A stretch of DNA of 64,000 bases, from NCBI GenBank assembly GCA_964624475.1, contig CAZUYC010000083.1:135792-199791 (forward strand). Direction: 5' to 3'. Both the position numbers and the translations under genes were made by a program. Of the stretch, positions 9,809 to 35,584 are shown piece after piece; position 1 is the stretch's first letter; each line of letters starts with the position of its first letter. The notes under the pieces were generated by a model. It did no database searches. It saw only the letters and a program-made list of their open reading frames with translations, and was not told where the DNA came from. This DNA comes from an uncultured Spirochaetales bacterium (GTDB taxonomy: Bacteria > Myxococcota_A > UBA9160 > SMWR01).

Positions 9809-9854
9809 AGTCCGTGATCCCCGTTCCGCGCGCCCGCTCGAAAGAAGGAGTCCC

Positions 9855-10508: not shown

Positions 10509-10534
10509 GCGCGGAGGGCCCCCGACGGACTCGT

Positions 10535-10795: not shown

Positions 10796-10918
10796 GCGCT
10801 CCTCCTTGCGTCCTCGCGCGGCCCGACGGGTGAGACGAGCCTCGACCCGCGCGGCCGCCCGTGGACCGACCCAGTCTGATCCCCGAGAGGCCGACGAGTC
10901 AAGCGAGGCCCGCCGCCG

Positions 10919-11296: not shown

Positions 11297-11330
11297 CACT
11301 CGTCGCTCCGGAGATGCGATTCGATGCAGC

Positions 11331-11861: not shown

Positions 11862-11924
11862 GAAAGAACCTCATGATGATCGCGCTGCACCGGGATGCGA
11901 AGCGAGGCTCCGCTGCCGCGTTGG

Positions 11925-12425: not shown

Positions 12426-12552
12426 GGCTTGTGCGCTTCTTGGGCGAGGCCCACAGAGTAGTAGCCCGCGTACCCCGACGACACCCCACGGCGCTCCTCG
12501 AGCGCGCGGGCTACGAGAAGGCCGAGATCAACGAGATCGCCAACATCGTGCA

Positions 12553-12870
12553 TCACCTGTCGAACGAACCGCCGCCTCTCCGCCAGACCTCCCTCTGAGT
12601 ACTCCCCGAAGATTGCCGACCGCGCCCCGGCACCTCCTCGGGGCGGAGGAGGCCGTGGCGCCTCCAGCCCAGGGTGACGTGGCACGGGAAGCGTGGGGCC
12701 AGGGCAGGCCGGCGGCGGTGCGGGTCGCGCGGGCTCGGACCGGGCTTGCGGCCGGCGCCCTTCCGCGGTCCTCCCCAACGGTGCGGGGGTCGGAGGTCGA
12801 GGGTGATCTGCCGAGATCGCGTCGACATGCCGCGCATGCTGACACGCCGATGTGACAGATCAGGACGCAC
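12553..12870 (-). mobile_element. Remnant of an IS200/IS605-type (RayT-like) Y1 transposase, N-terminal fragment only
   Basis: RWGGPRKGAGRKPGPSPRDPHRRRPALAPRFPCHVTLGW matches the N-terminus I recall for IS200-like transposases of high-GC deltaproteobacteria. No HUH or Tyr catalytic region follows. Confidence 0.5.
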
Positions 12871-13136
12871 TCGACGGACCTTGATTGCGCGATCTTCTCA
12901 GAAGCAGGACTCGAGCGCACCCCGGCACGGGTCGCGCGGCCTCGCCGCGATCGCTTTCCGCTGTCGGTGAAGCGGTCGAGCATCCGCGGAGCGGTTGCGC
13001 TGCGGCCGGAACGGCCATGCTGCCGCGGGAACCGTTCTCGCGTTGGGCGCGGGCCCACAGCGGGGCCCTCGCGCGCGCCGGCCGCTCGGGCTAGCTTGCT
13101 CGGTGCGTTCCACGCGCGCCCCGGGAGACGAAACCG

Positions 13137-20156: not shown

Positions 20157-21416
20157 ATGCCTCGTCGCTCGCGCATCCGGATCGGGGTTCTCGCGGCAGC
20201 ACTCGCGGCCGGCGCCGGCTCCGCCGTCGCCGACGAGACCTGCCAGTCGCCGTACCTGCCGCGCCTCGAGGGCCAGGAGGACTTCGTCTACGTCTGGACG
20301 CTCGGGATCGAGGGGCTCGGGGACGGCTCGGACAAGCTCGTGACGGTCGGAGCCAACCCGGCGCGCGCGGACCATGGGAAGGTCGTGTCGAGCGTCCCGG
20401 TCGGCGGCCGCGACGAGGCCCATCACGCCGGCTTCAGCGACGACCGGCGCCGGCTCTGGGCCGGGGGCCTCGACTCGAGCCGGATCTTCGTCTTCGACGT
20501 GCACAGCGATCCGGCGCGCCCGAAGCTCGTGCGGACGATCGAAGACTTCGTCGCGCGCACGGGCGGCGTCGTGGGTCCCCACACCTTCTACGCGCTTCCC
20601 GGGCGCATGCTGATCACGGGCCTCTCGAACTCGAAGGACTGGGGCGGTCGCACGGCGCTCGTCGAGTACAGCAACGAGGGCGAGTTCATCCGCACCCTCT
20701 GGATGCCCGAAGGCGCGGAGTACGGCTACGACGCGCGCGTGAAGCCGGAGCTGAACCGCATGCTGACCTCCTCCTTCACCGGCCACGCCAACTACATGCG
20801 CAAGCTCGGGGACCTGCTGGGCGACGCCGAGGCGATGAAGCGCTTCGGGAACACCGTGGTGGTGTGGGACTTCCACGCGCGCAAGCCGCTGCAGACGCTC
20901 GCGGTCCCGGGGGCGCCGCTCGAGATCCGCTGGGCCCTCCGCCCCGAGCACCACTACGCTTTCACGAGCACCGCGCTCACCGCGAAGCTCTGGGGGATCT
21001 TCCGCAAGGACGACGGCTCCTTCGAGGCGGTCCCGATCGGCGACGTCGGCGATCCCTCGAAGACGCCGCTCCCGGTCGACATCTCGCTCTCGGCGGACGA
21101 CCGCTTCCTGTTCGTCGACAGCTTCATGGATGGGAAGGTTCGCGTCTACGACGTCTCGGACCCGCGCAAGGCGAAGCTCGTGCACGAGCGCGTGATCGGA
21201 CCCCAGCTCAATATGGTCTCACAGTCCTGGGACGGGAAGCGCGTCTACTTCACGAGCTCGCTGCTCGCCCACTGGGACGGCACCGGCCACGAGGACGCCC
21301 AGTTCCTGCGGGCCTTCGGCTGGGACGGGAAGACGCTCGAGCCCGCCTTCGAGATCGACTTCCGCGGGCAGGCGCTCGGCCGCCCGCACATCATGAACCT
21401 CGGCGCGGGGGGGTAG
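20157..21416 (+). CDS. SBP56-family (selenium-binding protein / methanethiol oxidase-like) protein, secreted
   Basis: N-terminal signal MPRRSRIRIGVLAAALAAGAGSAVA. Family-typical stretches LWAGGLDSSRIFVFDV, GPHTFYALPGRMLI and YFTSSLL. Confidence 0.88.
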   Translation: MPRRSRIRIGVLAAALAAGAGSAVADETCQSPYLPRLEGQEDFVYVWTLGIEGLGDGSDKLVTVGANPARADHGKVVSSVPVGGRDEAHHAGFSDDRRRLWAGGLDSSRIFVFDVHSDPARPKLVRTIEDFVARTGGVVGPHTFYALPGRMLITGLSNSKDWGGRTALVEYSNEGEFIRTLWMPEGAEYGYDARVKPELNRMLTSSFTGHANYMRKLGDLLGDAEAMKRFGNTVVVWDFHARKPLQTLAVPGAPLEIRWALRPEHHYAFTSTALTAKLWGIFRKDDGSFEAVPIGDVGDPSKTPLPVDISLSADDRFLFVDSFMDGKVRVYDVSDPRKAKLVHERVIGPQLNMVSQSWDGKRVYFTSSLLAHWDGTGHEDAQFLRAFGWDGKTLEPAFEIDFRGQALGRPHIMNLGAGG

Positions 21417-22129
21417 TGGGCGCAGTGCCCCGTTCCAGACCTTCGCGGTGGTTCGGAGGCAGCGTGCGCCCGCTCTTCTGTGCGCTCGCCCTTGGCCTCG
21501 CCCCGGACCCCGCACGGGGGCACGGGACTCCGCACGCCGCGGCGGCCGATGAGGGGGCGCCGCCCCTCGCCTACGAGCTCCCGGCCGCGGGGAGCTACGA
21601 GCTCCCGCCGATCCTGCGCGTCTCGGACCACGAGCTGCTGGGCTCCGACGGGGCGCGCGCCCGGATCCTCGACCTCGCTCCCGGCGAGCTGGCCTTCGTC
21701 TCCTTCGTCTACCTCGGCTGCCACGACGCGAGCGGCTGCCCGCTCGCGCTCGCGACGCTGCTGCGCCTCGATCGCGCGCTCGCGGCGCGCCCCGAGCTCG
21801 CCGGCCGCGTGCGGCTCGCGACGGTGAGCTTCGACCCCGCGCGGGATCGCCCGGACGACCTCGCGCGCCTGCGCGAGGGGCTCGGTCCCCGCTCCGAGTG
21901 GCGCTTCCTGACCGCGACCGGCGAGGCCGATCTCGCCCCCGTGCTCGCGGACTTCGGCCAGGACCGCGACGTGCTCCCCGCCGGCGCCGGCGACACGGCC
22001 CGCCTCGGCCACGTGCTCAAGGTCTTCCTCGTCGATTCGCGCGGCGACGTCCGCAACGTCTACAGCACGGGCTTCCTCGACCACCGGCTCCTCGTGCGCG
22101 ACGCCGAGACGCTGCTGCTCGAGCCCTGA
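21416..22129 (+). CDS. SCO1/SenC-family thioredoxin-fold copper chaperone
   Basis: FVYLGCHDASGCPL Cys pair, VSFDPARD and VFLVD patterns. Start is GTG at 21416 (overlapping the SBP56 stop) or 21425. Confidence 0.75.
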   Translation: MGAVPRSRPSRWFGGSVRPLFCALALGLAPDPARGHGTPHAAAADEGAPPLAYELPAAGSYELPPILRVSDHELLGSDGARARILDLAPGELAFVSFVYLGCHDASGCPLALATLLRLDRALAARPELAGRVRLATVSFDPARDRPDDLARLREGLGPRSEWRFLTATGEADLAPVLADFGQDRDVLPAGAGDTARLGHVLKVFLVDSRGDVRNVYSTGFLDHRLLVRDAETLLLEP

Positions 22130-22862: not shown

Positions 22863-23792
22863 GTGCTCGCCGAAGTCCGCCGCCGCAGGGTCTCGCTCCC
22901 GGGTCGAGGCGTCGAGCTCGCGCTCCTCGACTGGGGCGGCGAGGGGCCCCTCGCGCTGCTGCACCACGCGAACGGGTTCTGCGCGGCGGTGTGGGGCCCC
23001 GTAGCCGAAGGCCTGCGCGGGAGCTTCCGCGTCGTCGCCGTCGACGCGCGCGGCCACGGCGACTCCTCCAAGCCCGAGGACGCCGAAAGCTATCACTGGG
23101 CGGAGTTCGGCCGCGACCTCGCGGCGCTCGCGGCGACCCTGGCCGCCGAGTCGGGCCCCGTGGCGGTCGGCCTCGGCCACTCCTTCGGCGGCACGGCGAC
23201 GCTGCTCGCCGCGGTGGAGCGCCCGGAGCTCTTCGAGCGCGTGGTCCTCGTCGACCCGGTGATCTTTCCGGCGCACGCCTTCGAGGCCGACCCGGAGCGA
23301 CGCGCCCGCGCCGGCGGCATGGCCGAGGGCGCGCGCCGCCGCCGCCACGTCTTTCCGGATCGCGCCGCCGCCGGCGCGAGCTGGCGGACCCGCGACACCT
23401 TCGCGCGCTGGGATCCGCGCGTGCTCGAGCTCTATCTGGCCGAGGGGCTCGCGGAGCGCCCGGGCGGCGGCGTCGAGCTCAAGTGCCCCGGGGAGGTCGA
23501 GGCGGCCATCTTCGAGCGCGGCGCGAGCGTGGACGCGATGGCCGCGGCGCGGCGGCTGCGCGTTCCCGCGCTCGTCCTCGCCGCGCGGCGGGGGAACTTC
23601 CCGCGCGCGCACTTCGAGGAGCTCGCGCGCGGCATGTCCGACGGGCGGGTGCGCGAGGTCGACACGGGGCACTTCGTCCCGATGGAGGACCCGGAGCTCG
23701 TCGTGCGCGAGACGCTCGCCTTCAGCGCTCGACCGGAAAGCCCCGCCGCTGCCAGCCCGAGAAGCCCTCCGCCAGCGACACGACGCTCGTGA
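22863..23792 (+). CDS. Alpha/beta hydrolase
   Basis: LLHHANGF, nucleophile elbow GHSFGG, and C-terminal HFVPMEDP. Confidence 0.8.
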   Translation: MLAEVRRRRVSLPGRGVELALLDWGGEGPLALLHHANGFCAAVWGPVAEGLRGSFRVVAVDARGHGDSSKPEDAESYHWAEFGRDLAALAATLAAESGPVAVGLGHSFGGTATLLAAVERPELFERVVLVDPVIFPAHAFEADPERRARAGGMAEGARRRRHVFPDRAAAGASWRTRDTFARWDPRVLELYLAEGLAERPGGGVELKCPGEVEAAIFERGASVDAMAAARRLRVPALVLAARRGNFPRAHFEELARGMSDGRVREVDTGHFVPMEDPELVVRETLAFSARPESPAAASPRSPPPATRRS

Positions 23793-24111
23793 AGCCCATC
23801 TCGTGGAGCGTCCGAGCCGCGAGCGCGCTCCGGTGCCCTCCACCGCAGTAGAGCACGAGCCTCCGCTCGCGATCGGCGAGCCACGCGTCGCGCTTCGGAT
23901 GCGAGAGGTCGGCGCGCACCTCGAGGAAGCCGCGCGGGAAGCTCCGCGCCCCGGGGATCCGCCCCGCGTCCCACTCGTCGGGCTCGCGCACGTCGACGAA
24001 GTGCCAGCCGTCGCACTCCGTTGCCTCGAGCAGGCTCCGCGCCTCCTCCGGCGAGATCTCGCTCACCACGGCGAGCGCCGAGCGCACGAAGTCCGCCAGG
24101 GCCTTCGCCAA
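23722..24111 (-). CDS. Rhodanese-domain sulfurtransferase
   Basis: FVDVREPDEWDAGRIPGA and active-site loop YCGGGHRS. Confidence 0.88.
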   Translation of the reverse strand: MAKALADFVRSALAVVSEISPEEARSLLEATECDGWHFVDVREPDEWDAGRIPGARSFPRGFLEVRADLSHPKRDAWLADRERRLVLYCGGGHRSALAARTLHEMGFTSVVSLAEGFSGWQRRGFPVER

Positions 24112-25040: not shown

Positions 25041-25367
25041 ATGGAGCATCCGAGCGCGATCCGGCCCGAGGCGCACGCGGTCTTCGATCCGGCGAAGATG
25101 GGCAAGGCCACGCTCTTCCGCTCGGAGCGGATCATGGTCGGGCTCAACTGCTTCGAGCCCGGCCAGGAGCACGCGCTCCACGCGCACGCGGGAATGGACA
25201 AGGTCTACCTCGTCGTCTCCGGCCGGGGGCGCTTCGTCCTCGAGGGCCGCGAGCTGCCGATGGAGGCGGGCGCGATGCTGGTGGCGCCGGAGGGGGTGCC
25301 GCACGGCATCCGCAACCCGGGCGGCGATCGGCTGGTCGTTCTCGCGATCCTCGCGCCCGCGCCGTAG
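25041..25367 (+). CDS. Cupin domain protein
   Basis: 108 aa. GQEHALHAHAGMDKVY ... PEGVPHGIRN has the cupin His pattern. Confidence 0.8.
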   Translation: MEHPSAIRPEAHAVFDPAKMGKATLFRSERIMVGLNCFEPGQEHALHAHAGMDKVYLVVSGRGRFVLEGRELPMEAGAMLVAPEGVPHGIRNPGGDRLVVLAILAPAP

Positions 25368-25448: not shown

Positions 25449-28286
25449 TTGAGCCGGCACGTCGAGCCGAAGCCTGCGCCGCGCGGCGCCGACGGGGGAG
25501 AGCCCGAGCCCGAGCCCGAGCTCGACCGGATCGGGCGCTTCGGAGTGAACGCGGCTCTCGTCGAGGAGATCCGCCAGCGCTACGAGGTGGACCCGACGTC
25601 GGTCGACGCCGGCTGGGCCGATCTCTTCGAGGCGGAGGACGAGGCCCCTGGCGAGCCGAAGCCTGCGCCGGACGCGGAGACGCCGCCCGGGCTCGCGGCG
25701 CAGGCGGCCGACCGCCACGCGCGCGTCCTGCGGCTGATCCACTCCTACCGGGCGCGGGGCCACCGGATCGCGAACACCGACCCGCTCGGCTCCCATCCCT
25801 CCTACTTCCCCGAGCTCGATCCCGCGCACTACGGCTTCGGGAACGAGGACATGGGTCGCCGCTACATCGCGGGCGACCTGCCCGGCGGTCCGCTCCAGAC
25901 GCTGGGCCAGATCCTCGAGCGCCTGCGCCATACCTACTGCCGCACGATCGGCGTCGAGTTCACGCACGTGCAGGACCCCGGCCGGAAGCTCTGGCTCCAG
26001 CGCCAGCTCGAGGAGCCCGAGAACGAGAGCCGCCCTACCACGCCGGAGCGCCTGCGCATCCTCGAGAAGCTCGCCGCGGCGGAGATCTTCGAGCGCTTCC
26101 TGCACACGAAGTTCGTGGGGCAGAAGCGCTTCTCCCTCGAGGGCTCCGAGTCGCTGATCCCGGCGCTCGACACGCTCGTCGAGGACGCCCCGCGGCACGG
26201 GATCCGCGAGCTCGTGATCGGCATGGCCCACCGCGGCCGCCTGAACGTGCTCTCCAACGTGATCGGGAAGTCGATCGCGTCGATCTTCTCCGAGTTCGAG
26301 GATAGCCCCCTGATCGACAGCCCCTTCGGCTCGGGGGACGTCAAGTACCACAAGGGCTTCACGGCCGACCGCCGCGTGGCGACCGGCGAGAGCGTGCACC
26401 TCTCCCTCACGGGCAACCCGTCGCACCTCGAGGCGGTGGACCCGGTGGTCGAGGGGCGCGCGCGCGCCAAGCAGCGCCGCGCCGGCGATCTGCAGGGCGA
26501 GACGATCGTGCCCGTCCTGATCCACGGCGACGCGGCCTTCGCGGGGCAGGGGATCGTCGCCGAGACGCTGAACCTCTCGCAGCTCGCGGGCTACTGCACC
26601 GGCGGCACGCTCCACTTCGTGGTGAACAACCAGATCGGCTTCACCACGACGCCCGCCGAGGCGCGCTCCACGCTCTACTGCACGGACGTCGCCAAGATGA
26701 TCCAGGTGCCGATCTTCCACGTGAACGGCGACGACCCCGAGGCCGTCGTTGGCTGCACGCGCCTCGCCCTCGCCTACCGGCAACGCTTCCACGAGGACGT
26801 GGTGATCGACATCGTCTGCTATCGCCGCCACGGGCACAACGAGGGCGACGAGCCGAGCTTCACCCAGCCGCTGCTCTACGAGAAGATCCGCGGGCGCAAG
26901 AGCACGCGCACGCTCTACGAGGAGAGGCTCCTCGAGCTCGGCGTGCTCGAGCCCGCCGACCTCCGGCGCATCGACGAGGACCTCGACCGGCAGCTCGAGC
27001 ACGCGCTGCGGGTGATCGAGACGCGGCCGCCGGGGCCCGACGAGCCCTACGAGCCGCGGGGACCGTGGTCGGGTTTCTCGCGCACGCCACCCGAGGCGGA
27101 CCCGGAGACCGGGGTGCCCGTCGAGCAGCTCGCGATGATCGCCGAGCGGATCTCGACCGTGCCCGCCGGCTTCGCCCTGCACCCGAAGCTCGCGGCGCTG
27201 CTCGAGCGCCGGCGCAAGGTGATCGCGGAGGACGGCGCGGTGGACTGGGGGATGGCCGAGGCGCTGGCCTTCGGGTCGCTCGTGGCCGAGGGCACGCCGC
27301 TCCGGCTCTCGGGCCAGGACTCCTGCCGCGGCACCTTCAGCCAGCGCCACGCGGCGCTCGTGGACCAGCGCAGCGGCGAGGAGTACCTGCCGCTCGCCCA
27401 CGTCTCGCCGACCCAGGCGCGCTTCGAGTGCTACGACTCCCTGCTCTCGGAGGCCGCGGTGCTCGGCTTCGAGTACGGCCACAGCCTCGCGGACCCGTCG
27501 GTGCTCACGATCTGGGAGGCGCAGTTCGGCGACTTCGCGAACGGGGCGCAGGTGATCATCGACCAGTTCATCACCTCCGCGCACGTGAAGTGGGGCCGCA
27601 TGAGCGGGCTCGTGATGCTGCTCCCGCACGGCTACGAGGGCCAGGGGCCCGAGCACTCGAGCGCGCGCATGGAGCGCTTCCTCCAGGCGTGCGCCGACGA
27701 CAACATCCAGCTGGTGAACTGCTCCACCTCCGCGAACTACTTCCACGTGCTGCGCCGCCAGATGCGCCGCCCCTTCCGGGCGCCGCTCGTCGTCTTCACG
27801 CCGAAGAGCCTGCTGCGCCTCCCGCGCGCGACCTCGCGACCGCGGGACCTGGCGAGCGGGCGCTTCCGGCGCCTGATCCCCGACGAGGCCGCGCTCGCCG
27901 CGCCGGAGGGCGTGCGCCGCGTGGTCCTGTGCAGCGGCAAGGTCTACTACGACCTTCTGGAGGAGCGCGGGCGGCGCTTCGGCGCCTCGGTCCCGGCCGC
28001 GCTCGTGCGCGTGGAGCAGCTCCATCCCTGGCCCGCGGCAGAGATCGCGGCCGCCGTCCACGCCCTCCCCGCGGCCACCCGGGTCGTCTGGGCGCAGGAG
28101 GAGCCCGCGAACATGGGCGCCTGGACCTTCGTGCGCGAGCGGATCCACGACGCGCTGCTCCCGCACCAGGCGCTCGCCTACGCCGGACGTCGCGCGGCCG
28201 CGAGCCCCGCCGCCGGCTCGCTCCGCATCCACCGGCAGGAGCAGGCCGCGGTGCTCGACGCCGCCTTCGTGGGTCTCGACCGCTGA
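25449..28286 (+). CDS. sucA: 2-oxoglutarate dehydrogenase E1 component
   Basis: 945 aa. SLEGSESLIP, MAHRGRLNVL, GDVKYHKG and HGDAAFAGQG motifs. TTG start follows GGGAGGGGAGGAGGAG. Confidence 0.95.
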   Translation: MSRHVEPKPAPRGADGGEPEPEPELDRIGRFGVNAALVEEIRQRYEVDPTSVDAGWADLFEAEDEAPGEPKPAPDAETPPGLAAQAADRHARVLRLIHSYRARGHRIANTDPLGSHPSYFPELDPAHYGFGNEDMGRRYIAGDLPGGPLQTLGQILERLRHTYCRTIGVEFTHVQDPGRKLWLQRQLEEPENESRPTTPERLRILEKLAAAEIFERFLHTKFVGQKRFSLEGSESLIPALDTLVEDAPRHGIRELVIGMAHRGRLNVLSNVIGKSIASIFSEFEDSPLIDSPFGSGDVKYHKGFTADRRVATGESVHLSLTGNPSHLEAVDPVVEGRARAKQRRAGDLQGETIVPVLIHGDAAFAGQGIVAETLNLSQLAGYCTGGTLHFVVNNQIGFTTTPAEARSTLYCTDVAKMIQVPIFHVNGDDPEAVVGCTRLALAYRQRFHEDVVIDIVCYRRHGHNEGDEPSFTQPLLYEKIRGRKSTRTLYEERLLELGVLEPADLRRIDEDLDRQLEHALRVIETRPPGPDEPYEPRGPWSGFSRTPPEADPETGVPVEQLAMIAERISTVPAGFALHPKLAALLERRRKVIAEDGAVDWGMAEALAFGSLVAEGTPLRLSGQDSCRGTFSQRHAALVDQRSGEEYLPLAHVSPTQARFECYDSLLSEAAVLGFEYGHSLADPSVLTIWEAQFGDFANGAQVIIDQFITSAHVKWGRMSGLVMLLPHGYEGQGPEHSSARMERFLQACADDNIQLVNCSTSANYFHVLRRQMRRPFRAPLVVFTPKSLLRLPRATSRPRDLASGRFRRLIPDEAALAAPEGVRRVVLCSGKVYYDLLEERGRRFGASVPAALVRVEQLHPWPAAEIAAAVHALPAATRVVWAQEEPANMGAWTFVRERIHDALLPHQALAYAGRRAAASPAAGSLRIHRQEQAAVLDAAFVGLDR

Positions 28287-28336
28287 TCCCGCGCGCTAGC
28301 TTTCGCCGGTATCCTCCGGCCCTCGAGGAGAGCCCC

Positions 28337-29551
28337 ATGGACCTCCGCTACGGCGAGGAGTACGAGGCCTGGCGCGGCGAGGTGCGCGCCTTCCTCGAGG
28401 GCCACTGGCCGCCGCGCGGCGAGCTCGCGAAGCTCCCGCGCAAAGCAGCTGCCGCGCGCTTCCGCGAGCTCGCCACTGAGCGCGGCTACCTGCGCCGCTC
28501 CGTGCCGAGCAAGTACGGCGGCTCCGAGCAGCCGCCGGACCCGATCCGCGCGCGCATCCTCCAGGAGGAGTTCCTGCGCGTGCGGGCGCCGATGGACGTG
28601 CGCGGCATCGGCACGATGATGCTCGTCCCGACGCTGCTCGAGAAGGGCGAGGAGTGGCAGAAGGAGCGCTTCGTGCCCCCGACCGTCCGGGGCGAGATCA
28701 CCTGGTGCCAGGGCTACAGCGAGCCGGGCTCCGGCAGCGACCTCGCGTCGCTCAAGACGCGCGCCGAGCTCGTCGGCGACGAGTGGGTCGTGAACGGGCA
28801 GAAGATCTGGACCACCCAGGCCCACGAGGCCGACTTCATGTTCTGCCTGGCGCGCAGCGAGGCGGACGCGCCCAAGCACGCCGGGATCTCGTACCTGCTG
28901 ATCCCGATGAAGCAGCCGGGGATCGAGGTCCGCCCGCTGCGCCAGATGACCGGCGGCGCCGACTTCAACCAGGTCTTCCTGAGCGACGCGCGCACCCCGA
29001 AGGACTGGATCGTGGGCAAGCGCGGCGAGGGCTGGCAGGTCTCGCGCGCGACGCTCAAGCACGAGCGCAACTCGATCGGCGCCGCGGCGCAGACCAATGC
29101 GCTCTTCCAGGGGCTCGTGCACCTGGCCCAGACGACGCGGCGCGGCGGGAAGCGGGCGATCGAAGACGCGACGATCCGCGATCGGCTGGTCGCGATCGAG
29201 GGTTACGTCCGCGCCCACGAGTACTCGAGCTACGTCCAGCTCACGCGCGATGCCCGCGGCGAGGACCCCGGGATCCTCCAGCTCATGAGCAAGCTCCACT
29301 CGACCGACATCGGGAGCCGGGTCGCCAGGCTCGCGCTCGAGATCCTCGGCGACGATGCGCTCCTCGACCCCACGGTGCAGGACGAGATGGTGCACCTCCC
29401 GAACGCGAACCGATCCTGGATCACGCAGTACATGTACTCGCTCGGGATCGCGATCGCGGGAGGGAGCGCGAACGTGCAGCGCAACGTCATCGCCGAGCGC
29501 GGCCTCGGCCTGCCGCGCGACTGGTGGGCGCAGCGGAGCTCGGGCAAGTGA
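28337..29551 (+). CDS. Acyl-CoA dehydrogenase family protein
   Basis: ITWCQGYSEPGSGSDLASL, WVVNGQKIWTT. ATG at 28337 follows GAGGAG. Confidence 0.88.
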   Translation: MDLRYGEEYEAWRGEVRAFLEGHWPPRGELAKLPRKAAAARFRELATERGYLRRSVPSKYGGSEQPPDPIRARILQEEFLRVRAPMDVRGIGTMMLVPTLLEKGEEWQKERFVPPTVRGEITWCQGYSEPGSGSDLASLKTRAELVGDEWVVNGQKIWTTQAHEADFMFCLARSEADAPKHAGISYLLIPMKQPGIEVRPLRQMTGGADFNQVFLSDARTPKDWIVGKRGEGWQVSRATLKHERNSIGAAAQTNALFQGLVHLAQTTRRGGKRAIEDATIRDRLVAIEGYVRAHEYSSYVQLTRDARGEDPGILQLMSKLHSTDIGSRVARLALEILGDDALLDPTVQDEMVHLPNANRSWITQYMYSLGIAIAGGSANVQRNVIAERGLGLPRDWWAQRSSGK

Positions 29552-30621
29552 ACTTCGACCTCTCCGACGAGCAGCGCCTGCTCCAGGAGACGGTCCGGAG
29601 CTTCCTGGCCAAGGAGTGCCCGCCGGGCCACCTGCGGGCGATCTTCGAGGGGGAGGGCCACGACCCTTCGCTCTGGAAGGGGATGATCGAGCTCGGCCTC
29701 GGCGGGCTCCACCTCTCGGAGGAGTTCGGCGGGGCCGGGCTCGAGCTCGTCGATCTCGCGCTCGCGGCCGAGGTGCTCGGCCACGCGGGAGCGCCGGGGC
29801 CCTTCCTCGGCCACGCGCTCGCGGGCCTCGCGATCGCGCTCGCCGGGAGCCCCGAGCAGCGCGAGGCGTGGCTGCCGCGGCTCGCCTCGGGCGAAGCGCT
29901 CGCGACGGTCGCCCTCGGCGAGCCGGGTGGGCTCTGGCAGCCCGAGGAGTGGACGCTCGAGCCCGGCGAGCGCCTGACGGGGACGAAGACGAACGTCCCC
30001 TTTGCTTCGCTCGCGGACCTGCTCGTGGTGGGCCTCGCGGGCGGGCGCATGGCGCTCGTCCTGCGCGGCGCGCAGGGCATGGCCGTGGCGCCGATCGAGG
30101 CCGTCGACCGCGCGCGCCGTATCGACGCGGTCGTCTTCCAGGGGACGCCCTGCGAGATCCTGCCGGCGGGCGAGAGCGCCGCGGGTCGCGTGCGCGACGC
30201 CGGCCTCGTGCTGCTCGCGGCGGATGCCTTCGGCGCGGGCTCGCGGCTCGTCGAGATGTCGGTCGAGTACGCGAAGACGCGCGAGCAGTTCGGCGTCACG
30301 ATCGGGCACTTCCAGGCGCTCAAGCACCAGCTCGCGAACATGGCGCTCGAGATCGAGCCGGCGCGGGCGCTCGTCTGGTACGCCGCCTACGCGTTCGACC
30401 ACCTCCCCGAGGAGGCCTCGCGCTCCGCCGCGCTGGCCAAGGCGCACATCACCGAGCGCGCCATGCAGGTCGCTCGCGACGCCGTCGAGTGTCACGGAGG
30501 GATCGGCTTCACCTGGGAGTGCGACGTGCAGCTCTGGTTCAAGCGCTGCATGTTCGACCGCGCCTTCCTCGGTCCCCCCTCCCTCCAGCGCGAGCGCGCC
30601 GCCCGCCTCGCCGGCTGGTAG
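29548..30621 (+). CDS. Acyl-CoA dehydrogenase family protein (shorter partner subunit)
   Basis: VNFDLSDEQRLLQETVRSF, REQFGVTIGHFQALKH, HGGIGFTWE. GTGA overlap with the upstream ACAD. Confidence 0.85.
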   Translation: MNFDLSDEQRLLQETVRSFLAKECPPGHLRAIFEGEGHDPSLWKGMIELGLGGLHLSEEFGGAGLELVDLALAAEVLGHAGAPGPFLGHALAGLAIALAGSPEQREAWLPRLASGEALATVALGEPGGLWQPEEWTLEPGERLTGTKTNVPFASLADLLVVGLAGGRMALVLRGAQGMAVAPIEAVDRARRIDAVVFQGTPCEILPAGESAAGRVRDAGLVLLAADAFGAGSRLVEMSVEYAKTREQFGVTIGHFQALKHQLANMALEIEPARALVWYAAYAFDHLPEEASRSAALAKAHITERAMQVARDAVECHGGIGFTWECDVQLWFKRCMFDRAFLGPPSLQRERAARLAGW

Positions 30622-30668
30622 GCGCGAAGTTCGGGGACGTTCTTTTCCGGCATGAGGGAGGGGAAGAC

Positions 30669-30845
30669 ATGCGGCGATCGAGGTCGGTCCGGCTCGTCCT
30701 CGGGCTCGCGGCGCTCGTCGGTTCGACCGGCTTCGCGACCTGCGGGGGCGCGGTGCCCGAGGCGGAGACCGCGGCGGAGGAGAGCGACGCCGAAGCGACG
30801 ATCGAGGAGGAGCAGGAGGACATGTACCGGGACATCGACCGCTGA
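30669..30845 (+). CDS. Small acidic putative lipoprotein (58 aa)
   Basis: Strong RBS GAGGGAGGGG. Signal with lipobox-like LVGSTGFATC, followed by an Asp/Glu-rich tail. Confidence 0.5.
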   Translation: MRRSRSVRLVLGLAALVGSTGFATCGGAVPEAETAAEESDAEATIEEEQEDMYRDIDR

Positions 30846-30902
30846 ACGGCCGGCCGTCCCGCTCCCGGCCACCTGGAGGCCCTGAGCACGAGGAGGAGGG
30901 AG

Positions 30903-31121
30903 ATGCGCATCTCCATCGTCTACTGCGTGGAGTGAGACTACCGACCCCGAGCCGCCGGTCTGGCGGCCAGGATCGAGCAGGAGCTCGGCGTCGCGCCCGA
31001 GCTCGTCCGGGGCAAGGGCGGCGTCTTCGACGTGAGCGTCGACGGCCGGCGCATCTTCTCGAAGCACGAAGCCGGCCGCTTCCCCGAGGAGGAGGAGATC
31101 CTCGCCCGGCTGCGGCGCTGA
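30903..31121 (+). CDS. SelW-like Rdx-family selenoprotein (in-frame UGA at 30933..30935 read as Sec)
   Basis: My translation is MRISIVYCVE-U-DYRPRAAGLAARIEQELGVAPELVRGKGGVFDVSVDGRRIFSKHEAGRFPEEEEILARLRR. The CxxU lies at the family CxxC/CxxU position. RBS AGGAGGAGGGAG sits directly upstream and a hairpin directly downstream of the UGA. Confidence 0.8.
30951..30967 (+). promoter_or_regulatory. Candidate bacterial SECIS hairpin
   Basis: GCCGCC-GGUCU-GGCGGC starts 15 nt after the UGA. The GGUC-containing apical loop resembles the E. coli fdhF SECIS loop. Confidence 0.55.
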
Positions 31122-31200
31122 TCCGCGCGCGAGGATCCCCGGGAGCGGGGCCGTCGCCGGGGCTTTACAAGCCCGGGGCGCCGAGCCCATCATCGGGGCC

Positions 31201-32970
31201 ATGCCGGAGATCCCCGGCGTCGATCCGGTGACCGCGGAGGTGATCCGCGGGGCGATGGAGACGGTCGCCTACGAGATGGCGACCCACGTCTCGCTCACGG
31301 CGACGACGCCGATCCTGAACCAGTCGAACGAGCGCAACGCGACGATCCTCGACGGGCGCGGTCGCCTCGCGGCGCTCTCGGTCGGGATCCCGCAGTTCAT
31401 GCTCTCCTCGACCCTCCCGGTGCGCTTCGCGCTCGATTTCTTCCGCGCGGAGGGCCTGAACGAAGGCGACGTGCTCGTCGCGAACGACCCCTACCACGGC
31501 GGCGGGCACCTGCCCGACTACAACGTCTTCGCCCCGCTCGTCGTGGACGGAGAGCTGCTGCTGATCGCCTCGATCCAGTGCCACCACGCCGACACGGGCG
31601 GCGGCATGCCGGGCGGCTACAACGTCCAGGCGGTCGACGTCTGGGCCGAGGGCGTGCGCTACCCGGCGCTCAAGATCTTCGACCGGGGGCGCGAGCGGCG
31701 CGATCTCGTCTACATGATGGCGGTGAACAACCGCACGCCGACCTTCCTCGGCGACCTGCGCGCGCAGATCGGGGCCGCCCAGCTCGGCGTGCGCCGGCTG
31801 CGCGAGATCGCGGAGCGCTTCGGGGCCGAGTCGGTGCGCGCGGCCGTGGACCACTCGATCGCCTACGCCGCCCGCCGCTTCCGCGAGGAGGTCTCCGCCT
31901 GGCCCGACGGCGAGTACGAAGCCGACGTGTACGTCGACCACGATCCGAAGGGCAACCCGGACATCCACGTCCACTGCGAGGTCCGCGTGCAGGGCGATCG
32001 CCTGCGCGTCGACTTCACCGGCTCGGACACGCGCCCGGAGCTGCAGGCCTGGTCCACCTTCGGGAACACGCGCGGCTACGTCGTGGCGCAGCTCGCGAGC
32101 ATGATGGACCCCGCGATCCCGAAGAACGAGGGCTTCTTCGACTCGATCGAGCTCGTCGTGCCGGAGGGCTGCTGTCTCAACCCGAAGCCCGGGCGTTCGG
32201 TCGCCGCGGGGACGCACCACCCGGGCGTCGAGGTCGGCGAGGCGGTCTGCCTGGCGCTGGCCCGGGTGATCCCGGAGCGGGCCTGCCCGCAGATCTACAA
32301 GGCCGGGATGCCGGCGATCCTCTACGGCGTCCACCCCGAGACGGGGCGCGTCTTCGTCGACCACTCGGTGGACTGCACCGCGGCCTACTGCGGCGCCGTG
32401 CACGGAGTGGATGGCTGGGGCTCGGCCAACGCCTGCTTCGGCAACCTGATCAAGGCCACGGCCGAGATCAACGAGTCGATCTTCCCGACGCGCCACGAGC
32501 ATCTCGACTATCTCGTCGACAGCGGCGGGCCCGGGAAGTGGCGCGGCTGCCCCGGCTCGAGGTACGTGAAGCGCGTGACGGCGCCGTGCTCGGTCTTCAC
32601 CTACCAGGTGGGGATGAAGTACCCGATGCCGGGCGTCGCGGGCGGGCGGCCGGGCGGGCCGAACCGCTTCACGCTGCGCTTCGGCAGCGAGCGCGCGGAG
32701 GTCGTGAAGCACACCGCCGCGATGGTGCCGCTCGCGGCCGGCGAGGCCGTCGAGTACGTCCTCGGCGGCGGGGGCGGCTGGGGCGATCCCCTCGAGCGCG
32801 ACCCGGACCGGGTGCGCGAGGACGTGCTCGACGAGTACGTCTCGATCGAGGGCGCGCGGCGCGATTACGGCGTGGCGCTCACGGGGCGCATCGAGGACCT
32901 GAGCCTCGCCGTCGACGGGGACGAGACGAAGCGCCTGCGCTCGGCGGCCCGGGGCGCCGCCGCGAGGTGA
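31201..32970 (+). CDS. Hydantoinase B / oxoprolinase family protein (HyuB-like)
   Basis: DPVTAEVIRGAMETVAYEM, NDPYHGGGHLPD. 589 aa. Confidence 0.88.
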   Translation: MPEIPGVDPVTAEVIRGAMETVAYEMATHVSLTATTPILNQSNERNATILDGRGRLAALSVGIPQFMLSSTLPVRFALDFFRAEGLNEGDVLVANDPYHGGGHLPDYNVFAPLVVDGELLLIASIQCHHADTGGGMPGGYNVQAVDVWAEGVRYPALKIFDRGRERRDLVYMMAVNNRTPTFLGDLRAQIGAAQLGVRRLREIAERFGAESVRAAVDHSIAYAARRFREEVSAWPDGEYEADVYVDHDPKGNPDIHVHCEVRVQGDRLRVDFTGSDTRPELQAWSTFGNTRGYVVAQLASMMDPAIPKNEGFFDSIELVVPEGCCLNPKPGRSVAAGTHHPGVEVGEAVCLALARVIPERACPQIYKAGMPAILYGVHPETGRVFVDHSVDCTAAYCGAVHGVDGWGSANACFGNLIKATAEINESIFPTRHEHLDYLVDSGGPGKWRGCPGSRYVKRVTAPCSVFTYQVGMKYPMPGVAGGRPGGPNRFTLRFGSERAEVVKHTAAMVPLAAGEAVEYVLGGGGGWGDPLERDPDRVREDVLDEYVSIEGARRDYGVALTGRIEDLSLAVDGDETKRLRSAARGAAAR

Positions 32971-33806
32971 AGGTCGGCATCGCGCTCGCGCGCCTCCACC
33001 CCGCCTACCACGTCGCCGCGGCGCTCGAGGCGGAGCGGCTCGGCTTCGAATCGGTCTGGATGTCCGAGCACCTGGTCTTCCCGCTCGACATGTCGGGCTC
33101 GCCTCACCCGGGCGAGGACTCGCCGCCGGTGCCGCCGACGACGCCGGTCTACGACGCCTTCGCGTACCTCGCCTTCCTCGCGGCGAAGACCTCACGCGTG
33201 CGGCTCGGGACGAACGTGTATCTGCTCGGGCTGCGGCATCCCTTCGTCGCCGCACGCGCGGTCGCGACCCTCGACATCCTCTCGGGCGGCCGCGCGGAAG
33301 TCGGGATTGGCGCCGGCTGGCTCCGCCAGGAGTGGAGCGCCGCGGGCCTCGACCCGCGCACGCGCGGGCGCCGCCTCGACGAGGCCCTCGCCGTCTGCAA
33401 GCGGCTGTGGAGCGAGCCCGTCGTCGAGCACCGGGGCGAGTTCTTCGCCTTCCCGCCCGTCGCCTTCGAGCCGAAGCCCGTGCAGAAACCCTGGCCGCCG
33501 ATCCACGTCGGAGGCGAGTCGGAGGCGGCGCTCCGCCGCGCGGCGGCCGCCGCCGACGGCTGGTACGGGCTCGTGCACGATCTCGACTCGGCGGCAGCCC
33601 GGGTGCGTCGCCTGCGGGAGCTCCGTCGCGACGCCGGGCGGGAGCACGACCGCTTCGAGGTCACCCTCGGGGGAGAGCTCCGCGACCCCGACGAGCGGAA
33701 GCGCTGGGAGGACGCCGGCGTCGACCGCCTGGTCGTCGCGCCGTGGCGCCGCTCCAGCGAGGCCCTGGAGGGGCTGCGGCGCTTCGCGGACCTCGTCCTG
33801 CGATAG
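32967..33806 (+). CDS. Luciferase-like (LLM-class, probably F420-dependent) oxidoreductase
   Basis: AERLGFESVWMSEHL, LDILSGGRAEVGIGAGW. GTGA overlap with the hyuB-like stop. Confidence 0.85.
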   Translation: MKVGIALARLHPAYHVAAALEAERLGFESVWMSEHLVFPLDMSGSPHPGEDSPPVPPTTPVYDAFAYLAFLAAKTSRVRLGTNVYLLGLRHPFVAARAVATLDILSGGRAEVGIGAGWLRQEWSAAGLDPRTRGRRLDEALAVCKRLWSEPVVEHRGEFFAFPPVAFEPKPVQKPWPPIHVGGESEAALRRAAAAADGWYGLVHDLDSAAARVRRLRELRRDAGREHDRFEVTLGGELRDPDERKRWEDAGVDRLVVAPWRRSSEALEGLRRFADLVLR

Positions 33807-33935
33807 CCCGCTGTCTCCATTGCCCCCCCACGGGGCAGAAAATGTTTTCTCACGAGCACGCGGCATTTTTTTTCTCACAATTGCGATGTGCCGGAGAGTA
33901 GGGTGGAGCGGCAACGGACCTTGGAAGGGGATCCC

Positions 33936-34454
33936 ATGCGCCAGATCGTCCTGCTCGCAGCCGCCGCTTTCCTGCTCCTTGCTCCGTCGAGCGCGCTCGC
34001 GACCTCGGCCACCTACACCGTCAACATGAGTGGAGCGCAGGAGGTGGGTGTTGGCGACGCGGACGGCACCGCCTCGGGCACGATCATGCTCGACGATGTG
34101 AGCGGCCTGATCTCGTGGAGCTTCGTCTACGCCAACATCGCGGCGCCGACCTTGATGCACATCCACGGCCCCGCCGCTCCGGCGGGCGTCAACGCGGGCG
34201 TCTTCATCGGCCTCGGCGTGGTCACCTCCGGTGGGGCGGGAACGCTGATCGACTCGTTCGTGCACGGGAACCTCGCGCAGATCACGCAGATCCTGAGCTC
34301 CCCGACCACTTTCTACGTGAACATCCACAACGGGCCCTTCGGGGGCGGCGCCGTGCGAGGGCAGGTTCCCGAGCCCGCGACCGCGCTGCTCCTCGGCGCA
34401 GGGCTCGCGGGCCTCGGTGTGGCCTCCCGTCGCGCGGGACGCCGCAGCTCCTGA
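33936..34454 (+). CDS. CHRD-domain protein with PEP-CTERM sorting signal
   Basis: Signal peptide MRQIVLLAAAAFLLLAPSSALA, CHRD-like HIHGPA...YVNIHN...GGAVRGQV, and C-terminal VPEPATALLLGAGLAGLGVASRR. Confidence 0.8.
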   Translation: MRQIVLLAAAAFLLLAPSSALATSATYTVNMSGAQEVGVGDADGTASGTIMLDDVSGLISWSFVYANIAAPTLMHIHGPAAPAGVNAGVFIGLGVVTSGGAGTLIDSFVHGNLAQITQILSSPTTFYVNIHNGPFGGGAVRGQVPEPATALLLGAGLAGLGVASRRAGRRSS

Positions 34455-34540: not shown

Positions 34541-35584
34541 ATGCGCGCCCGCGGCACGAGCGGCAATCCCCCGAACCGATTCGAGACCCTGCGCAGCGTC
34601 CCGTCGCCTGAGGAGGCCGCCGAGCTCGAGGAGCGCAATCCCGATACGCAGCTCCTGCGGGACCCGTCGCGCAGCATCGTCGCCACCAACGAGAGCCCCG
34701 ACGTCGGCTTCGACGCGAGCCTCAATCCCTATCGCGGCTGTGAACACGGTTGTGTGTACTGCTACGCGCGCCCCACGCACGAGTATCTCGGCTTCTCGGC
34801 CGGGCTCGACTTCGAGACGCGGATCCTGGTGAAGGAGCGCGCGCCCGAGCTCCTGCGCGCGCGGCTCTCGGCGCGGAGCTGGAGGCCGCAGGTCGTGGCG
34901 CTCTCGGGCGTGACGGACGCCTACCAGCCGGCCGAGCGGCGGCTCGGGATCACGCGGCGCTGCCTCGAGGTGCTGCTCGAGTTCCGCAACCCCGTGACCG
35001 TCGTGACCAAGAGCTTCCTCGTCTCGCGCGACGCCGACCTCCTGCGCGAGCTCGCGGGCTTCGGCGCCGCGAGCGTCTGCGTGTCGATCACGACCCTCGA
35101 CCCCGAGCTGCAGCGGCGGATGGAGCCGCGCGCGGCCCCGCCGGGCCGGCGCCTCGCGGCGATCGAGATCCTCGCCGCCGCGGGCGTGCCGGTGGGCGTG
35201 ATGGTGGCGCCGATCGTCCCCGGGCTCACCGACCACGAGGCTCCGAAGATCCTCGCGGCGGCCGCCGCCGCGGGGGCGCGCTTCGCCGGGCGCGTCGTGC
35301 TGCGCCTCCCGCACGGCGTGGCGGAGCTCTTCGACGCCTGGCTGGCGGCGCACTACCCGGAGCGCCGCGCGCGGGTGCTCTCGCGCGTGCGCGCGCTGCG
35401 CGGCGGGCGCCTCTACGACTCGCGCTTCGGTGTGCGCCAGCGCGGCACCGGACCCTGGGCCGACGAGATGGAGGCGCTCTTCGACCTCGCGCGCCGCCGC
35501 GCGGGCCTCGCCGCGCGCGGGCCGGAGCTCTCGGTCGCGCTCTTCCGCCGCCCGGCGCGAGACGGACAGCTCGCGCTCTTGTGA
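34541..35584 (+). CDS. PA0069-family radical SAM protein (SplB-like)
   Basis: NRFE near the N-terminus and CEHGCVYCYARP (CxxxCxxC). Confidence 0.88.
   Translation: MRARGTSGNPPNRFETLRSVPSPEEAAELEERNPDTQLLRDPSRSIVATNESPDVGFDASLNPYRGCEHGCVYCYARPTHEYLGFSAGLDFETRILVKERAPELLRARLSARSWRPQVVALSGVTDAYQPAERRLGITRRCLEVLLEFRNPVTVVTKSFLVSRDADLLRELAGFGAASVCVSITTLDPELQRRMEPRAAPPGRRLAAIEILAAAGVPVGVMVAPIVPGLTDHEAPKILAAAAAAGARFAGRVVLRLPHGVAELFDAWLAAHYPERRARVLSRVRALRGGRLYDSRFGVRQRGTGPWADEMEALFDLARRRAGLAARGPELSVALFRRPARDGQLALL

What the first reader, a model, noticed from the sequence alone, without database searches (positions are those of the whole stretch)
30903..31121. Unannotated SelW/Rdx-family selenoprotein gene with in-frame UGA and fdhF-like SECIS
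The ORF track has no ORF for this gene and instead offers a 99-aa Arg-rich ORF (30932..31231) in another frame.

Sequence evidence:
- Reading from ATG 30903 gives a 72-residue Rdx-family protein if TGA 30933..30935 is decoded. The ATG is preceded by AGGAGGAGGGAG.
- The motif becomes YCVE-U, which is the CxxC/CxxU redox motif position of SelW/SelT/SelH-like proteins.
- The downstream sequence (GGVFDVSVDGRRIFSKHEAGRFPEEEEI) follows the family pattern.
- Fifteen nt after the UGA lies GCCGCC-GGUCU-GGCGGC. Its GGUC-containing loop resembles the apical loop of the E. coli fdhF SECIS.

Implication: the organism would have a Sec-decoding trait, and the gene may head an operon with the hyuB-like and LLM genes.
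Basis: partly seen in the sequence, partly recalled or inferred. Interest (0 to 1): 0.7.

Follow-up and report, generated by a model that had tools for sequence, protein, structure and literature searches.

The report
Unannotated SelW-like selenoprotein gene
A small redox-protein gene was missed by ORF finding because its active-site selenocysteine is encoded by a UGA "stop" codon followed by the usual bacterial recoding hairpin; the gene is real, but it belongs to a selenoprotein family that is already well known and very common.

Summary
ATG 30903 to TGA 31121 encodes a 72-residue protein if TGA 30933-30935 is decoded.

- With U written as C, it matches Pfam Rdx end to end (67 bits) and NCBIfam TIGR02174 CXXU_selWTH (56 bits, cutoff 34.2).
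- The coding signature (GC3 0.92) runs through the TGA. The rival 99-aa ORF has none.
- All 85 relatives recovered from metagenomes and reference genomes of many phyla carry TGA at the same codon, Cys three codons upstream, and a hairpin at the same offset.
- That hairpin meets all four published bacterial SECIS criteria. It covaries at synonymous third codon positions, and two of three Cys-form homologues have lost it.
- A covariance model built without the window hits 30933-30977 at 52 bits. The next best hit scores 13.

[quoted passage not shown] It is a new member of a known kind and an annotation fix, not a discovery.

No selA, selB, selD or tRNA-Sec lies in the 64 kb, which is uninformative. 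Conserved synteny does not support the proposed operon with hyuB and LLM.

The parts
30891..30902 (+). Shine-Dalgarno-like purine run AGGAGGAGGGAG, with a GGAGG core 6 nt upstream of the ATG
   Evidence: Read directly from the sequence.
30903..31121 (+). SelW-like (Rdx family) selenoprotein coding sequence: 72 residues with Sec at residue 11, terminal TGA included
   Evidence: Pfam PF10262 covers 1-73 of 74 profile positions at 67.3 bits. TIGR02174 scores 56 bits against a cutoff of 34.2. GC3 is 0.92 on both sides of the TGA. Solved Rdx structures align across residues 2-72.
30924..30935 (+). CxxU redox motif: Cys8 (TGC 30924-30926), Val, Glu, then Sec11 (TGA 30933-30935)
   Evidence: TGA at codon 11 and TGC or TGT at codon 8 in 85 of 85 relatives. 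The motif aligns to CxxC in Cys homologues and in PDB entries 2LJK and 2FA8.
30942..30975 (+). Full predicted SECIS stem-loop, comprising the lower stem 30942-30944/30973-30975 and the upper hairpin
   Evidence: RNAfold gives -17.8 kcal/mol for UGA plus 40 nt. The covariance model hit spans 30933-30977 at 52.4 bits.
30951..30967 (+). SECIS upper stem GCCGCC/GGCGGC (6 bp) with apical loop GGUCU (30957-30961); the loop starts 21 nt after the UGA
   Evidence: All four bSECIS criteria of PMC13188914 are met. The helix is 86% paired across 81 distinct relatives, and 4 of 7 pairs show compensatory changes. Loop G32 and U35 are invariant.
30932..31231 (+). Spurious 99-aa Arg-rich ORF offered by mechanical ORF finding; not a gene
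   Evidence: GC3 is 0.59 against 0.81 at codon positions 1 and 2. It has no Pfam family.

Best explanation
This is a genuine gene for a bacterial SelW-like (Rdx family, thioredoxin-like) selenoprotein of 72 residues with a Cys8-x-x-Sec11 redox centre.

Shown here:
- The reading frame continues through TGA 30933.
- The protein matches the family end to end, with the TGA at the redox Cys/Sec column.
- Relatives across many phyla keep the TGA and a covarying hairpin 21 nt downstream.

Inferred from the established bacterial mechanism, as worked out for E. coli fdhF:
- SelB-GTP carrying Sec-tRNA(Sec) binds the apical loop (GGUCU) of the hairpin in the mRNA.
- When the ribosome reaches the UGA, SelB delivers selenocysteine and release factor 2 does not terminate.
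- The mature protein then cycles between a selenol/thiol and a selenenylsulfide form as a small oxidoreductase. Its physiological substrate is unknown for the whole family.

ORF finders miss the gene because they read UGA as stop.
For: - Family: Pfam Rdx scores 67.3 bits and covers 1-73 of 74 profile positions. With X at the Sec site it still scores 60 bits. TIGR02174 scores 56 bits against a cutoff of 34.2. PDB Rdx proteins align with their CxxC over the CxxU.
- Coding signal: GC3 is 1.0 before the TGA and 0.92 after it. It is the only TGA in the window flanked by coding signal on both sides. Differences from the closest relative, L007, are biased toward third codon positions (7, 10 and 18 by position).
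- Conservation: TGA is at codon 11 in 85 of 85 relatives from at least 10 phyla. All close database homologues are N-truncated fragments. 18 of the 150 best representatives read 'CxxW', and the DNA of one of them has TGA.
- SECIS: all four published criteria are met. The helix is 86% paired, against 23-55% when the partners are slid. It has 35 compensatory cells, and 0 of 500 shuffles reach that. Covariation falls on synonymous Ala third positions: GCC/GCG in 64, GCG/GCC in 4, GCU/GCA in 3. The loop consensus is RGUYU, with G32 and U35 invariant.
- Leave-out model: a covariance model built without the window scores 52.4 bits (E about 1e-13) at exactly 30933-30977. The next best hit scores 13.3 bits.
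- Cys-form controls: two of three have only 4 of 7 pairs and loops without GU, although they keep the same peptide.
- Sec machinery next to the homologous gene: selB in L033 and selD in L046.
- TGA is an ordinary stop in this genome: 20 of 36 confident ORFs end in it.
Against: - No selA, selB, selD or tRNA-Sec is in the 64-kb window, so the organism's Sec trait is unverified.
- No Rfam family matched, even at E <= 10.
- The hairpin's stability is not significant against shuffles.
- RNAalifold's own consensus was a weak 3-bp alternative register with no covariation.
- One Cys-form homologue (L090) keeps 6 of 7 helix pairs and an AGUUU loop, so part of the helix can persist without Sec. The Cys control has only three genes.
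- The covariance model score includes conserved coding sequence, not structure alone.
- There is no expression or protein evidence.
Confidence: 0.9

Rival explanations
1. The hairpin is only a by-product of coding an Ala-rich helix (R-A-A-G-L-A-A) in a 73% GC genome and is not a SECIS. The UGA would then be passed by some other means or not at all.
For: Folding energy is not better than shuffles (z = -0.8 to -1.8). The Cys-form homologue L090 keeps 6 of 7 pairs and an AGUUU loop. RNAalifold did not recover the helix on its own.
Against: Covariation lies at synonymous third positions of two Ala codons, which protein selection cannot explain. Loop positions G32 and U35 are invariant in 81 of 81. 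Two of three Cys forms with the same peptide motif have lost the helix and the GU loop. The slid-partner controls collapse to 23-55% pairing.
Confidence: 0.05
2. It is a pseudogene or a split gene. TGA 30933 terminates a 10-residue peptide, and at most an N-truncated fragment is made from an internal start, as gene callers annotate the homologues.
For: Gene callers produce 39-54 aa fragments for every close homologue. No Sec machinery is visible in the window.
Against: The TGA is at the identical codon in 85 of 85 relatives across many phyla, with a conserved N-terminal beta-strand MKISITYC upstream of it. A disabling mutation would not be shared in this way. Coding composition and a synonymous bias persist on both sides of the TGA. 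A strong Shine-Dalgarno sequence precedes ATG 30903. The fragment would lack the CxxU active site.
Confidence: 0.03
3. UGA is reassigned to a standard amino acid, Trp or Gly, in this organism (genetic code 4 or 25), so the residue is not Sec.
For: Some database entries of the family read CxxW.
Against: 20 of 36 confident ORFs in the window end in TGA, and no other gene has an internal TGA with coding signal on both sides. The aligned column is the redox Cys of the family. 73% GC is the opposite of known code-4 and code-25 lineages (this last point rests on general knowledge).
Confidence: 0.01

Closest known systems
Bacterial SelW-like selenoprotein family (CxxU; Pfam Rdx PF10262, NCBIfam TIGR02174 CXXU_selWTH), described by Zhang, Gladyshev and colleagues (PMC1088965, PMC1794560, PMC2398784)
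   Same: Size of about 70-80 aa, an N-terminal CxxU motif, Sec encoded by UGA with a SECIS immediately downstream, far more Sec forms than Cys forms, and full-length profile matches above the curated cutoffs.
   Different: Nothing essential differs. After U the window has DYRP where most members have NYLP. Its SECIS has a perfect G-C at the stem position that is a mismatch in 46 of 81 members. Its genomic context is not shared with relatives.
E. coli fdhF SECIS and SelB-dependent Sec insertion
   Same: The hairpin lies within the coding region just after the UGA, with a small apical loop that begins GGUC. The string GGUCUG is shared. Spacing from UGA to loop is 18 nt in fdhF and 21 nt here.
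   Different: The loop is 5 nt closed by C-G here, against 4 nt closed by A-U in fdhF. The window has no bulged U in the upper stem. The stem sequence and the host protein (formate dehydrogenase H) are unrelated. SelB binding was not tested.
Solved Rdx-family proteins: human MIEN1/C17orf37 (2LJK), Agrobacterium Atu0228 (2FA8), 2OBK, 2P0G, 2OJL, 2OKA, 3DEX
   Same: They align across residues 2-72 with E values from 4.5e-8 to 6e-4, and their CxxC lies over the window's CxxU.
   Different: All are Cys forms of 103-117 residues with extra termini. Identity is modest. The fold of the window protein was not predicted here.
NCBIfam NF041051 SelTWH_Campy (equivalog)
   Same: It is the best-scoring NCBIfam model (87.5 bits over profile positions 1-69 of 70).
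   Different: The score falls 0.5 bit below the curated cutoff of 88, so the protein is not filed as this equivalog.

Membership tests
Rdx / SelW-like (PF10262, TIGR02174) | Full-length profile match above the curated cutoff | tested here: met
   PF10262 scores 67.3 bits against a cutoff of 22.6 and covers 1-73 of 74 profile positions. TIGR02174 scores 56 bits against 34.2 and covers 1-73 of 74.
Rdx / SelW-like (PF10262, TIGR02174) | CxxC or CxxU redox motif near the N-terminus, with U in the column of the second Cys | tested here: met
   YCVE-U aligns to YCEPC (2LJK) and YCTQC (2FA8), and to CxxC homologues P0018, P0027 and P0053.
Rdx / SelW-like (PF10262, TIGR02174) | Thioredoxin-like fold | not tested
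The fold is inferred from sequence homology to solved Rdx structures.
Rdx / SelW-like (PF10262, TIGR02174) | Thiol/selenol oxidoreductase activity | not testable with these tools
   This needs biochemistry.
Bacterial SECIS (bSECIS consensus model, PMC13188914 Fig. 2) | Apical loop of 3-9 nt and upper stem of 4-16 bp | tested here: met
   The loop GGUCU is 5 nt and the stem GCCGCC/GGCGGC is 6 bp.
Bacterial SECIS (bSECIS consensus model, PMC13188914 Fig. 2) | At least one G in the first two loop positions, usually followed by G or U | tested here: met
   The loop begins G-G-U. Across the family, G32 is invariant and U33 is present in 73 of 81.
Bacterial SECIS (bSECIS consensus model, PMC13188914 Fig. 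2) | [quoted passage not shown] | tested here: met
   The spacing is 21 nt. The offset is identical in all 85 relatives, whose alignment is gap-free.
Bacterial SECIS (bSECIS consensus model, PMC13188914 Fig. 2) | Minimum free energy of -7.5 kcal/mol or lower | tested here: met
   -17.8 kcal/mol for UGA plus 40 nt, and -11.6 kcal/mol for the 17-nt hairpin alone.
Bacterial SECIS (bSECIS consensus model, PMC13188914 Fig. 2) | Structure conserved with compensatory changes among homologues | tested here: met
   86% of cells are paired, 4 of 7 pairs are compensatory, 0 of 500 shuffles reach this, and the slid controls reach 23-55%. The covariation is synonymous. RNAalifold alone did not recover the helix.
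Bacterial SECIS (bSECIS consensus model, PMC13188914 Fig. 2) | Binding by SelB and SECIS-dependent UGA read-through | not testable with these tools
   This needs a reporter assay or a binding assay.
Rfam SECIS families | Covariance model match | tested here: not met
   No Rfam family reached its gathering score in the window. No SECIS family appeared at E <= 10 in 30850-31150. Short bacterial SECIS hairpins may simply not be well covered by Rfam; that is my own reading and was not tested.
Sec-decoding organism | selA, selB, selD and tRNA-Sec (selC) present in the genome | tested here: inconclusive
   None is in the 64-kb window: ARAGORN found no tRNA, tblastn with E. coli SelA, SelB and SelD found no hit, and Pfam scans of all confident ORFs found none. 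The rest of the genome is not available. Relatives L033 and L046 have selB or selD next to their SelW gene.
NF041051 SelTWH_Campy equivalog | Score at or above the curated cutoff of 88 bits | tested here: not met
   87.5 bits.
   HyuB is found in 1 of 88 loci, about 5 kb from SelW. A promoter-like site, TTTACA-18-CATCAT, lies at 31164-31193 in the 79-nt gap, and no terminator was found. The genes are co-directional, so co-transcription is not excluded.

The most novel reading that the evidence does not exclude
In this organism the SelW-like selenoprotein may be functionally tied to its co-directional neighbours: two acyl-CoA dehydrogenases, a lone hydantoinase-B/oxoprolinase subunit with no HyuA partner, a luciferase-like monooxygenase, a CHRD/PEP-CTERM protein and a radical SAM enzyme. 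It could serve, for example, as the redox partner of that cluster. That would give a first physiological context for a family whose substrate is unknown. The recurrence of CHRD-domain genes within a few kb of SelW in several unrelated loci would then be a real association and not chance.
Probability: 0.07. Interest if true: 0.4.

Novelty: new member of a known kind. Interest (0 to 1): 0.15.

Why it matters
Practically, this is an annotation correction. A real 72-residue gene should replace a spurious 99-aa ORF. Its presence also predicts that the source organism has the selenocysteine-decoding machinery (selA, selB, selC and selD) and needs selenium.

More broadly, it illustrates a persistent database problem. 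Of the 150 nearest representative proteins of this family, 108 are N-truncated fragments and 18 have the Sec codon mistranslated as Trp. Automated pipelines therefore still hide one of the commonest bacterial selenoproteins.

It does not change what is known about selenoproteins or recoding.

Tried and rejected
- **Rfam:** the gathering-threshold scan of the whole window and the permissive scan of 30850-31150 gave no SECIS family, only noise hits.
- **RNAalifold:** on the 85-sequence alignment it gave only a weak 3-bp alternative register with no covariation. The helix had to be named explicitly and tested with pair counts.
- **Hairpin stability:** comparison with shuffles was not significant, so stability was dropped as an argument.
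- **Representative search:** The exact 61-aa post-TGA fragment was used in its place.
- **tRNA-Sec:** a search in 60 related loci found none, which is uninformative.
- **Source genome:** an exact lookup of the HyuB protein found no record, and the window's genome was not among the GTDB hits (best identity 70%). The organism stays unidentified beyond being a 73% GC diderm (it has LptF/G and a PEP-CTERM motif).
- **Synteny:** a test of the operon idea found no conserved neighbours.
- **Small upstream ORF:** a first translation and Pfam scan used the wrong frame. This was corrected.
- **Rejected readings:** the 99-aa ORF 30932..31231 and the minus-strand ORF 30492..31202 were rejected as genes on composition.

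Full report
**1. The observation**

- A purine-rich Shine-Dalgarno run AGGAGGAGGGAG (30891-30902) precedes ATG 30903.
- The frame reads MRISIVYCVE, then TGA (30933-30935), then 61 more sense codons to TGA 31119-31121.
- Fifteen nucleotides after the in-frame TGA lie GCCGCC (30951-30956), GGUCU (30957-30961) and GGCGGC (30962-30967).
- Mechanical ORF finding lists only a 99-aa ORF, 30932..31231, in another frame.

The window is 73% GC, so third-position GC is a strong frame indicator.
- The candidate frame has GC1/GC2/GC3 of 0.73/0.47/0.92. GC3 is 1.0 before the TGA and 0.92 after it.
- The 99-aa ORF has 0.81/0.81/0.59 and is therefore not coding.
- A scan for TGAs flanked by coding signal on both sides, on both strands of the whole window, found only this one.

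**2. What the protein is**

With U written as C, the 72-residue product matches two family models end to end.
- Pfam Rdx (PF10262) scores 67.3 bits (E = 1.4e-18) over profile positions 1-73 of 74. With X at the Sec site it still scores 60 bits.
- NCBIfam TIGR02174 'CXXU_selWTH' scores 56 bits against a cutoff of 34.2.
- The equivalog NF041051 SelTWH_Campy scores 87.5 bits, 0.5 bit below its cutoff of 88.

Seven solved Rdx-family structures align across residues 2-72, with their CxxC exactly over the window's CxxU. They include human MIEN1 (2LJK), Agrobacterium Atu0228 (2FA8), 2OBK and 2P0G.

**3. Relatives**

The word-indexed protein search returned 13 close homologues. All are 39-54 aa long and cover only the C-terminal 31-74% of the query. 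Gene callers produce exactly this when they stop at a Sec codon.

The DNA around four of these fragments (eight loci, L001-L008) shows an upstream ATG, a conserved MKISITYC strand and an in-frame TGA at the same codon.

A scan of one genome per GTDB species returned 80 more loci. They come from Myxococcota, Planctomycetota, Vicinamibacteria and other Acidobacteriota, Desulfobacterota, Nitrospirota, Gemmatimonadota, Verrucomicrobiota, Spirochaetota and Beta- and Gammaproteobacteria.

In all 85 distinct genes, codon 11 is TGA and codon 8 is TGC or TGT.

The closest relative (L007/L008, 85% identity) has an identical hairpin. Its differences from the window are concentrated at third codon positions (7, 10 and 18 differences by position).

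**4. Cys homologues**

An exhaustive HMMER search with the exact 61-aa post-TGA fragment found 523 representatives at E <= 0.001. The best 150 break down as follows.
- 108 are N-truncated fragments.
- 18 are full length with 'CxxW'.
- 16 are true CxxC forms.
- 8 are miscellaneous.

The DNA of one CxxW entry (P0014, locus L092) has TGA at that codon, so these entries are Sec codons translated under genetic code 4. Cys homologues therefore exist, and their Cys aligns with the TGA. They are the minority.

**5. The SECIS**

The 60-nt region around the TGA aligns without gaps in all 85 genes. The helix pairs columns 24-30 with 36-42, and the loop is columns 31-35. Its pair counts are as follows.
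- 86% of cells are paired, against 23-55% when the 3' partners are slid by 1-3 columns.
- 4 of 7 pairs show changes on both sides, amounting to 35 cells.
- 0 of 500 shuffles reach the observed values.

The covarying columns 27/39 and 24/42 are third positions of codons that mostly encode Ala. The codon pairs switch in a complementary way: GCC/GCG in 64, GCG/GCC in 4 and GCU/GCA in 3. Selection on the peptide cannot explain that.

The loop consensus is RGUYU, with G32 and U35 invariant in 81 of 81 and U33 present in 73 of 81. The window's GGUCU is carried by 18 of 81.

The window meets all four published bSECIS constraints (PMC13188914, Fig. 2).

| Criterion | Requirement | Window |
|---|---|---|
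| Apical loop | 3-9 nt | 5 nt |
| Upper stem | 4-16 bp | 6 bp |
| UGA-to-loop spacing | 16-37 nt | 21 nt |
| Minimum free energy | <= -7.5 kcal/mol | -17.8 (UGA plus 40 nt); -11.6 (hairpin alone) |

A covariance model was built from the 80 GTDB relatives only, leaving out the window and its closest kin. With filters off, it hit 30933-30977 over its full length at 52.4 bits (E about 1e-13). The next best hit in both strands of the window scored 13.3 bits.

A direct comparison with E. coli fdhF supports the 'fdhF-like loop' remark. In fdhF, the UGA at codon 140 is followed 18 nt later by a GGUC loop, and the string GGUCUG is shared.

As a control, two of three true Cys-form genes that keep the A-x-x-L-A peptide have only 4 of 7 helix pairs, and their loops (AGCCU, GCGCU) lack GU. 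The third (L090) keeps 6 of 7 pairs and an AGUUU loop, and may be a recent Sec-to-Cys conversion.

**6. Weak points**

- The hairpin's stability alone is not better than shuffled sequence (z = -0.8 to -1.8).
- RNAalifold unaided proposed only a weak 3-bp alternative.
- No Rfam family matched.
- The covariance model score mixes coding conservation with structure.
- The Cys control has n = 3.
- There is no expression evidence.

**7. The Sec trait and context**

No tRNA gene and no SelA, SelB or SelD homologue (tblastn with the E. coli proteins) is present in the window. Pfam scans of essentially all confident ORFs show none either. For 64 kb of a genome of several Mb, this is uninformative.

In two relatives the SelW gene sits beside Sec machinery. 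L033 has selB about 1 kb away, and L046 has selD about 270 nt away.

TGA is an ordinary stop here: 20 of 36 confident ORFs end in it. Genome-wide reassignment of the codon is therefore excluded.

The gene lies in a co-directional run.

| Gene | Coordinates |
|---|---|
| cupin | 25041-25364 |
| 2-oxoglutarate dehydrogenase E1 | 25449-28283 |
| acyl-CoA dehydrogenase 1 | 28289-29548 |
| acyl-CoA dehydrogenase 2 | ~29560-30618 |
| small acidic putative lipoprotein | 30669-30845 |
| SelW | 30903-31121 |
| hydantoinase B | 31201-32967 |
| luciferase-like monooxygenase | 32973-33803 |
| CHRD/PEP-CTERM protein | 33888-34451 |
| radical SAM enzyme | 34541-35581 |

None of these neighbours is conserved beside SelW in the 88 related loci, apart from an occasional CHRD gene and one distant HyuB. 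A promoter-like site lies in the 79-nt gap before hyuB, and no terminator was predicted. The operon suggestion is therefore neither supported nor excluded.

**8. Comparison with what is known, and verdict**

Bacterial 'SelW-like' CxxU selenoproteins have been described since 2005.
- They were also the most abundant in the GOS data: 427 Sec forms against 56 Cys forms (PMC2398784).
- They are noted for having few Cys homologues (PMC1794560).

The gene here passes every membership feature that could be tested. It is a new, unannotated member of a well-known family with the canonical recoding mechanism.

The finding is correct and well argued, but of low novelty. Interest is 0.15. Its value lies in fixing the annotation and in predicting a Sec-decoding trait for the source organism.

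Noticed in passing
window 20157-22099 and 23725-24111: A homologue of the 56-kDa 'selenium-binding protein' SBP56 (20157-21413) is followed directly by a SCO1/SenC gene (21416-22099). A rhodanese lies nearby on the minus strand. From general knowledge, SBP56 next to SCO1 resembles bacterial methanethiol oxidase clusters. Any link to the selenoprotein is probably in the name only.
   Followed up: no
window 33888-34451; L002 5247-5795; L017 8346-8702; L042 5828-6139: A CHRD-domain gene lies within 2-4 kb of the SelW-like gene in the window and in several unrelated loci. In the window the protein also carries a PEP-CTERM motif. Whether this exceeds chance was not quantified.
   Followed up: partly
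L047, L053, L056, L059, L061, L068, L069, L071, L072 (about 9830-9950 in the 20-kb loci): In the Vicinamibacteria and other Acidobacteriota loci, a tRNA-Asp(GTC) gene ends 50-130 nt upstream of the SelW-like ATG. The arrangement is conserved.
   Followed up: no
L033 7102-8946 (-); L046 151-1062 (-): Sec machinery sits next to the homologous selenoprotein gene: selB about 1 kb from SelW in a Nitrospirota MAG, and selD about 270 nt from SelW in a Desulforhabdus MAG.
   Followed up: partly
Protein database entries P0014-P0163: The family is systematically misannotated. Of the 150 best representatives, 108 are N-truncated fragments, 18 carry 'CxxW' (TGA translated as Trp; DNA confirmed for P0014/L092) and only 16 are true CxxC forms.
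   Followed up: yes
L090 501-743: A true Cys-form homologue (TGC at the Sec column) still has 6 of 7 pairs of the SECIS helix and an AGUUU loop. It may be a 'fossil' SECIS left by a recent Sec-to-Cys conversion.
   Followed up: no
Alignment A2 columns 28/38 (window 30954/30964): The fourth pair of the SECIS upper stem is a U-C or A-C mismatch in 46 of 81 family members. In the window it is a G-C pair. The mismatch corresponds to Ser or Thr replacing Ala in the peptide, and its significance for SelB binding is unknown.
   Followed up: no
window 31201-32967: A full-length hydantoinase B/oxoprolinase gene (425 bits) has no hydantoinase A partner anywhere among the scanned window proteins. From general knowledge, the two subunits are usually adjacent.
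   Followed up: no
window 30669-30845: A small ORF 57 nt upstream of SelW encodes MRRSRSVRLVLGLAALVGSTGFATCGG... followed by a very acidic tail. It looks like a lipoprotein signal peptide with a lipobox-like FATC. My earlier Pfam scan of this ORF used the wrong frame, so it has not been scanned in the correct frame.
   Followed up: partly
window 10508-13095: The third-position GC signal is much weaker here (about 0.66-0.88) than in the rest of the window (about 0.93-0.97). Only a DUF2784 protein and a weak GNAT hit were found. The stretch could be foreign or poorly coding.
   Followed up: no
window 1-64000: The window is rich in lipid and acyl-CoA metabolism: two P450s, a carboxylesterase, an acyl-CoA ligase, WS/DGAT, two thiolases, two acyl-CoA dehydrogenases, GPAT, a fatty-acid desaturase and a CDP-alcohol phosphatidyltransferase. 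It also has LptF/G, which marks a diderm organism.
   Followed up: partly
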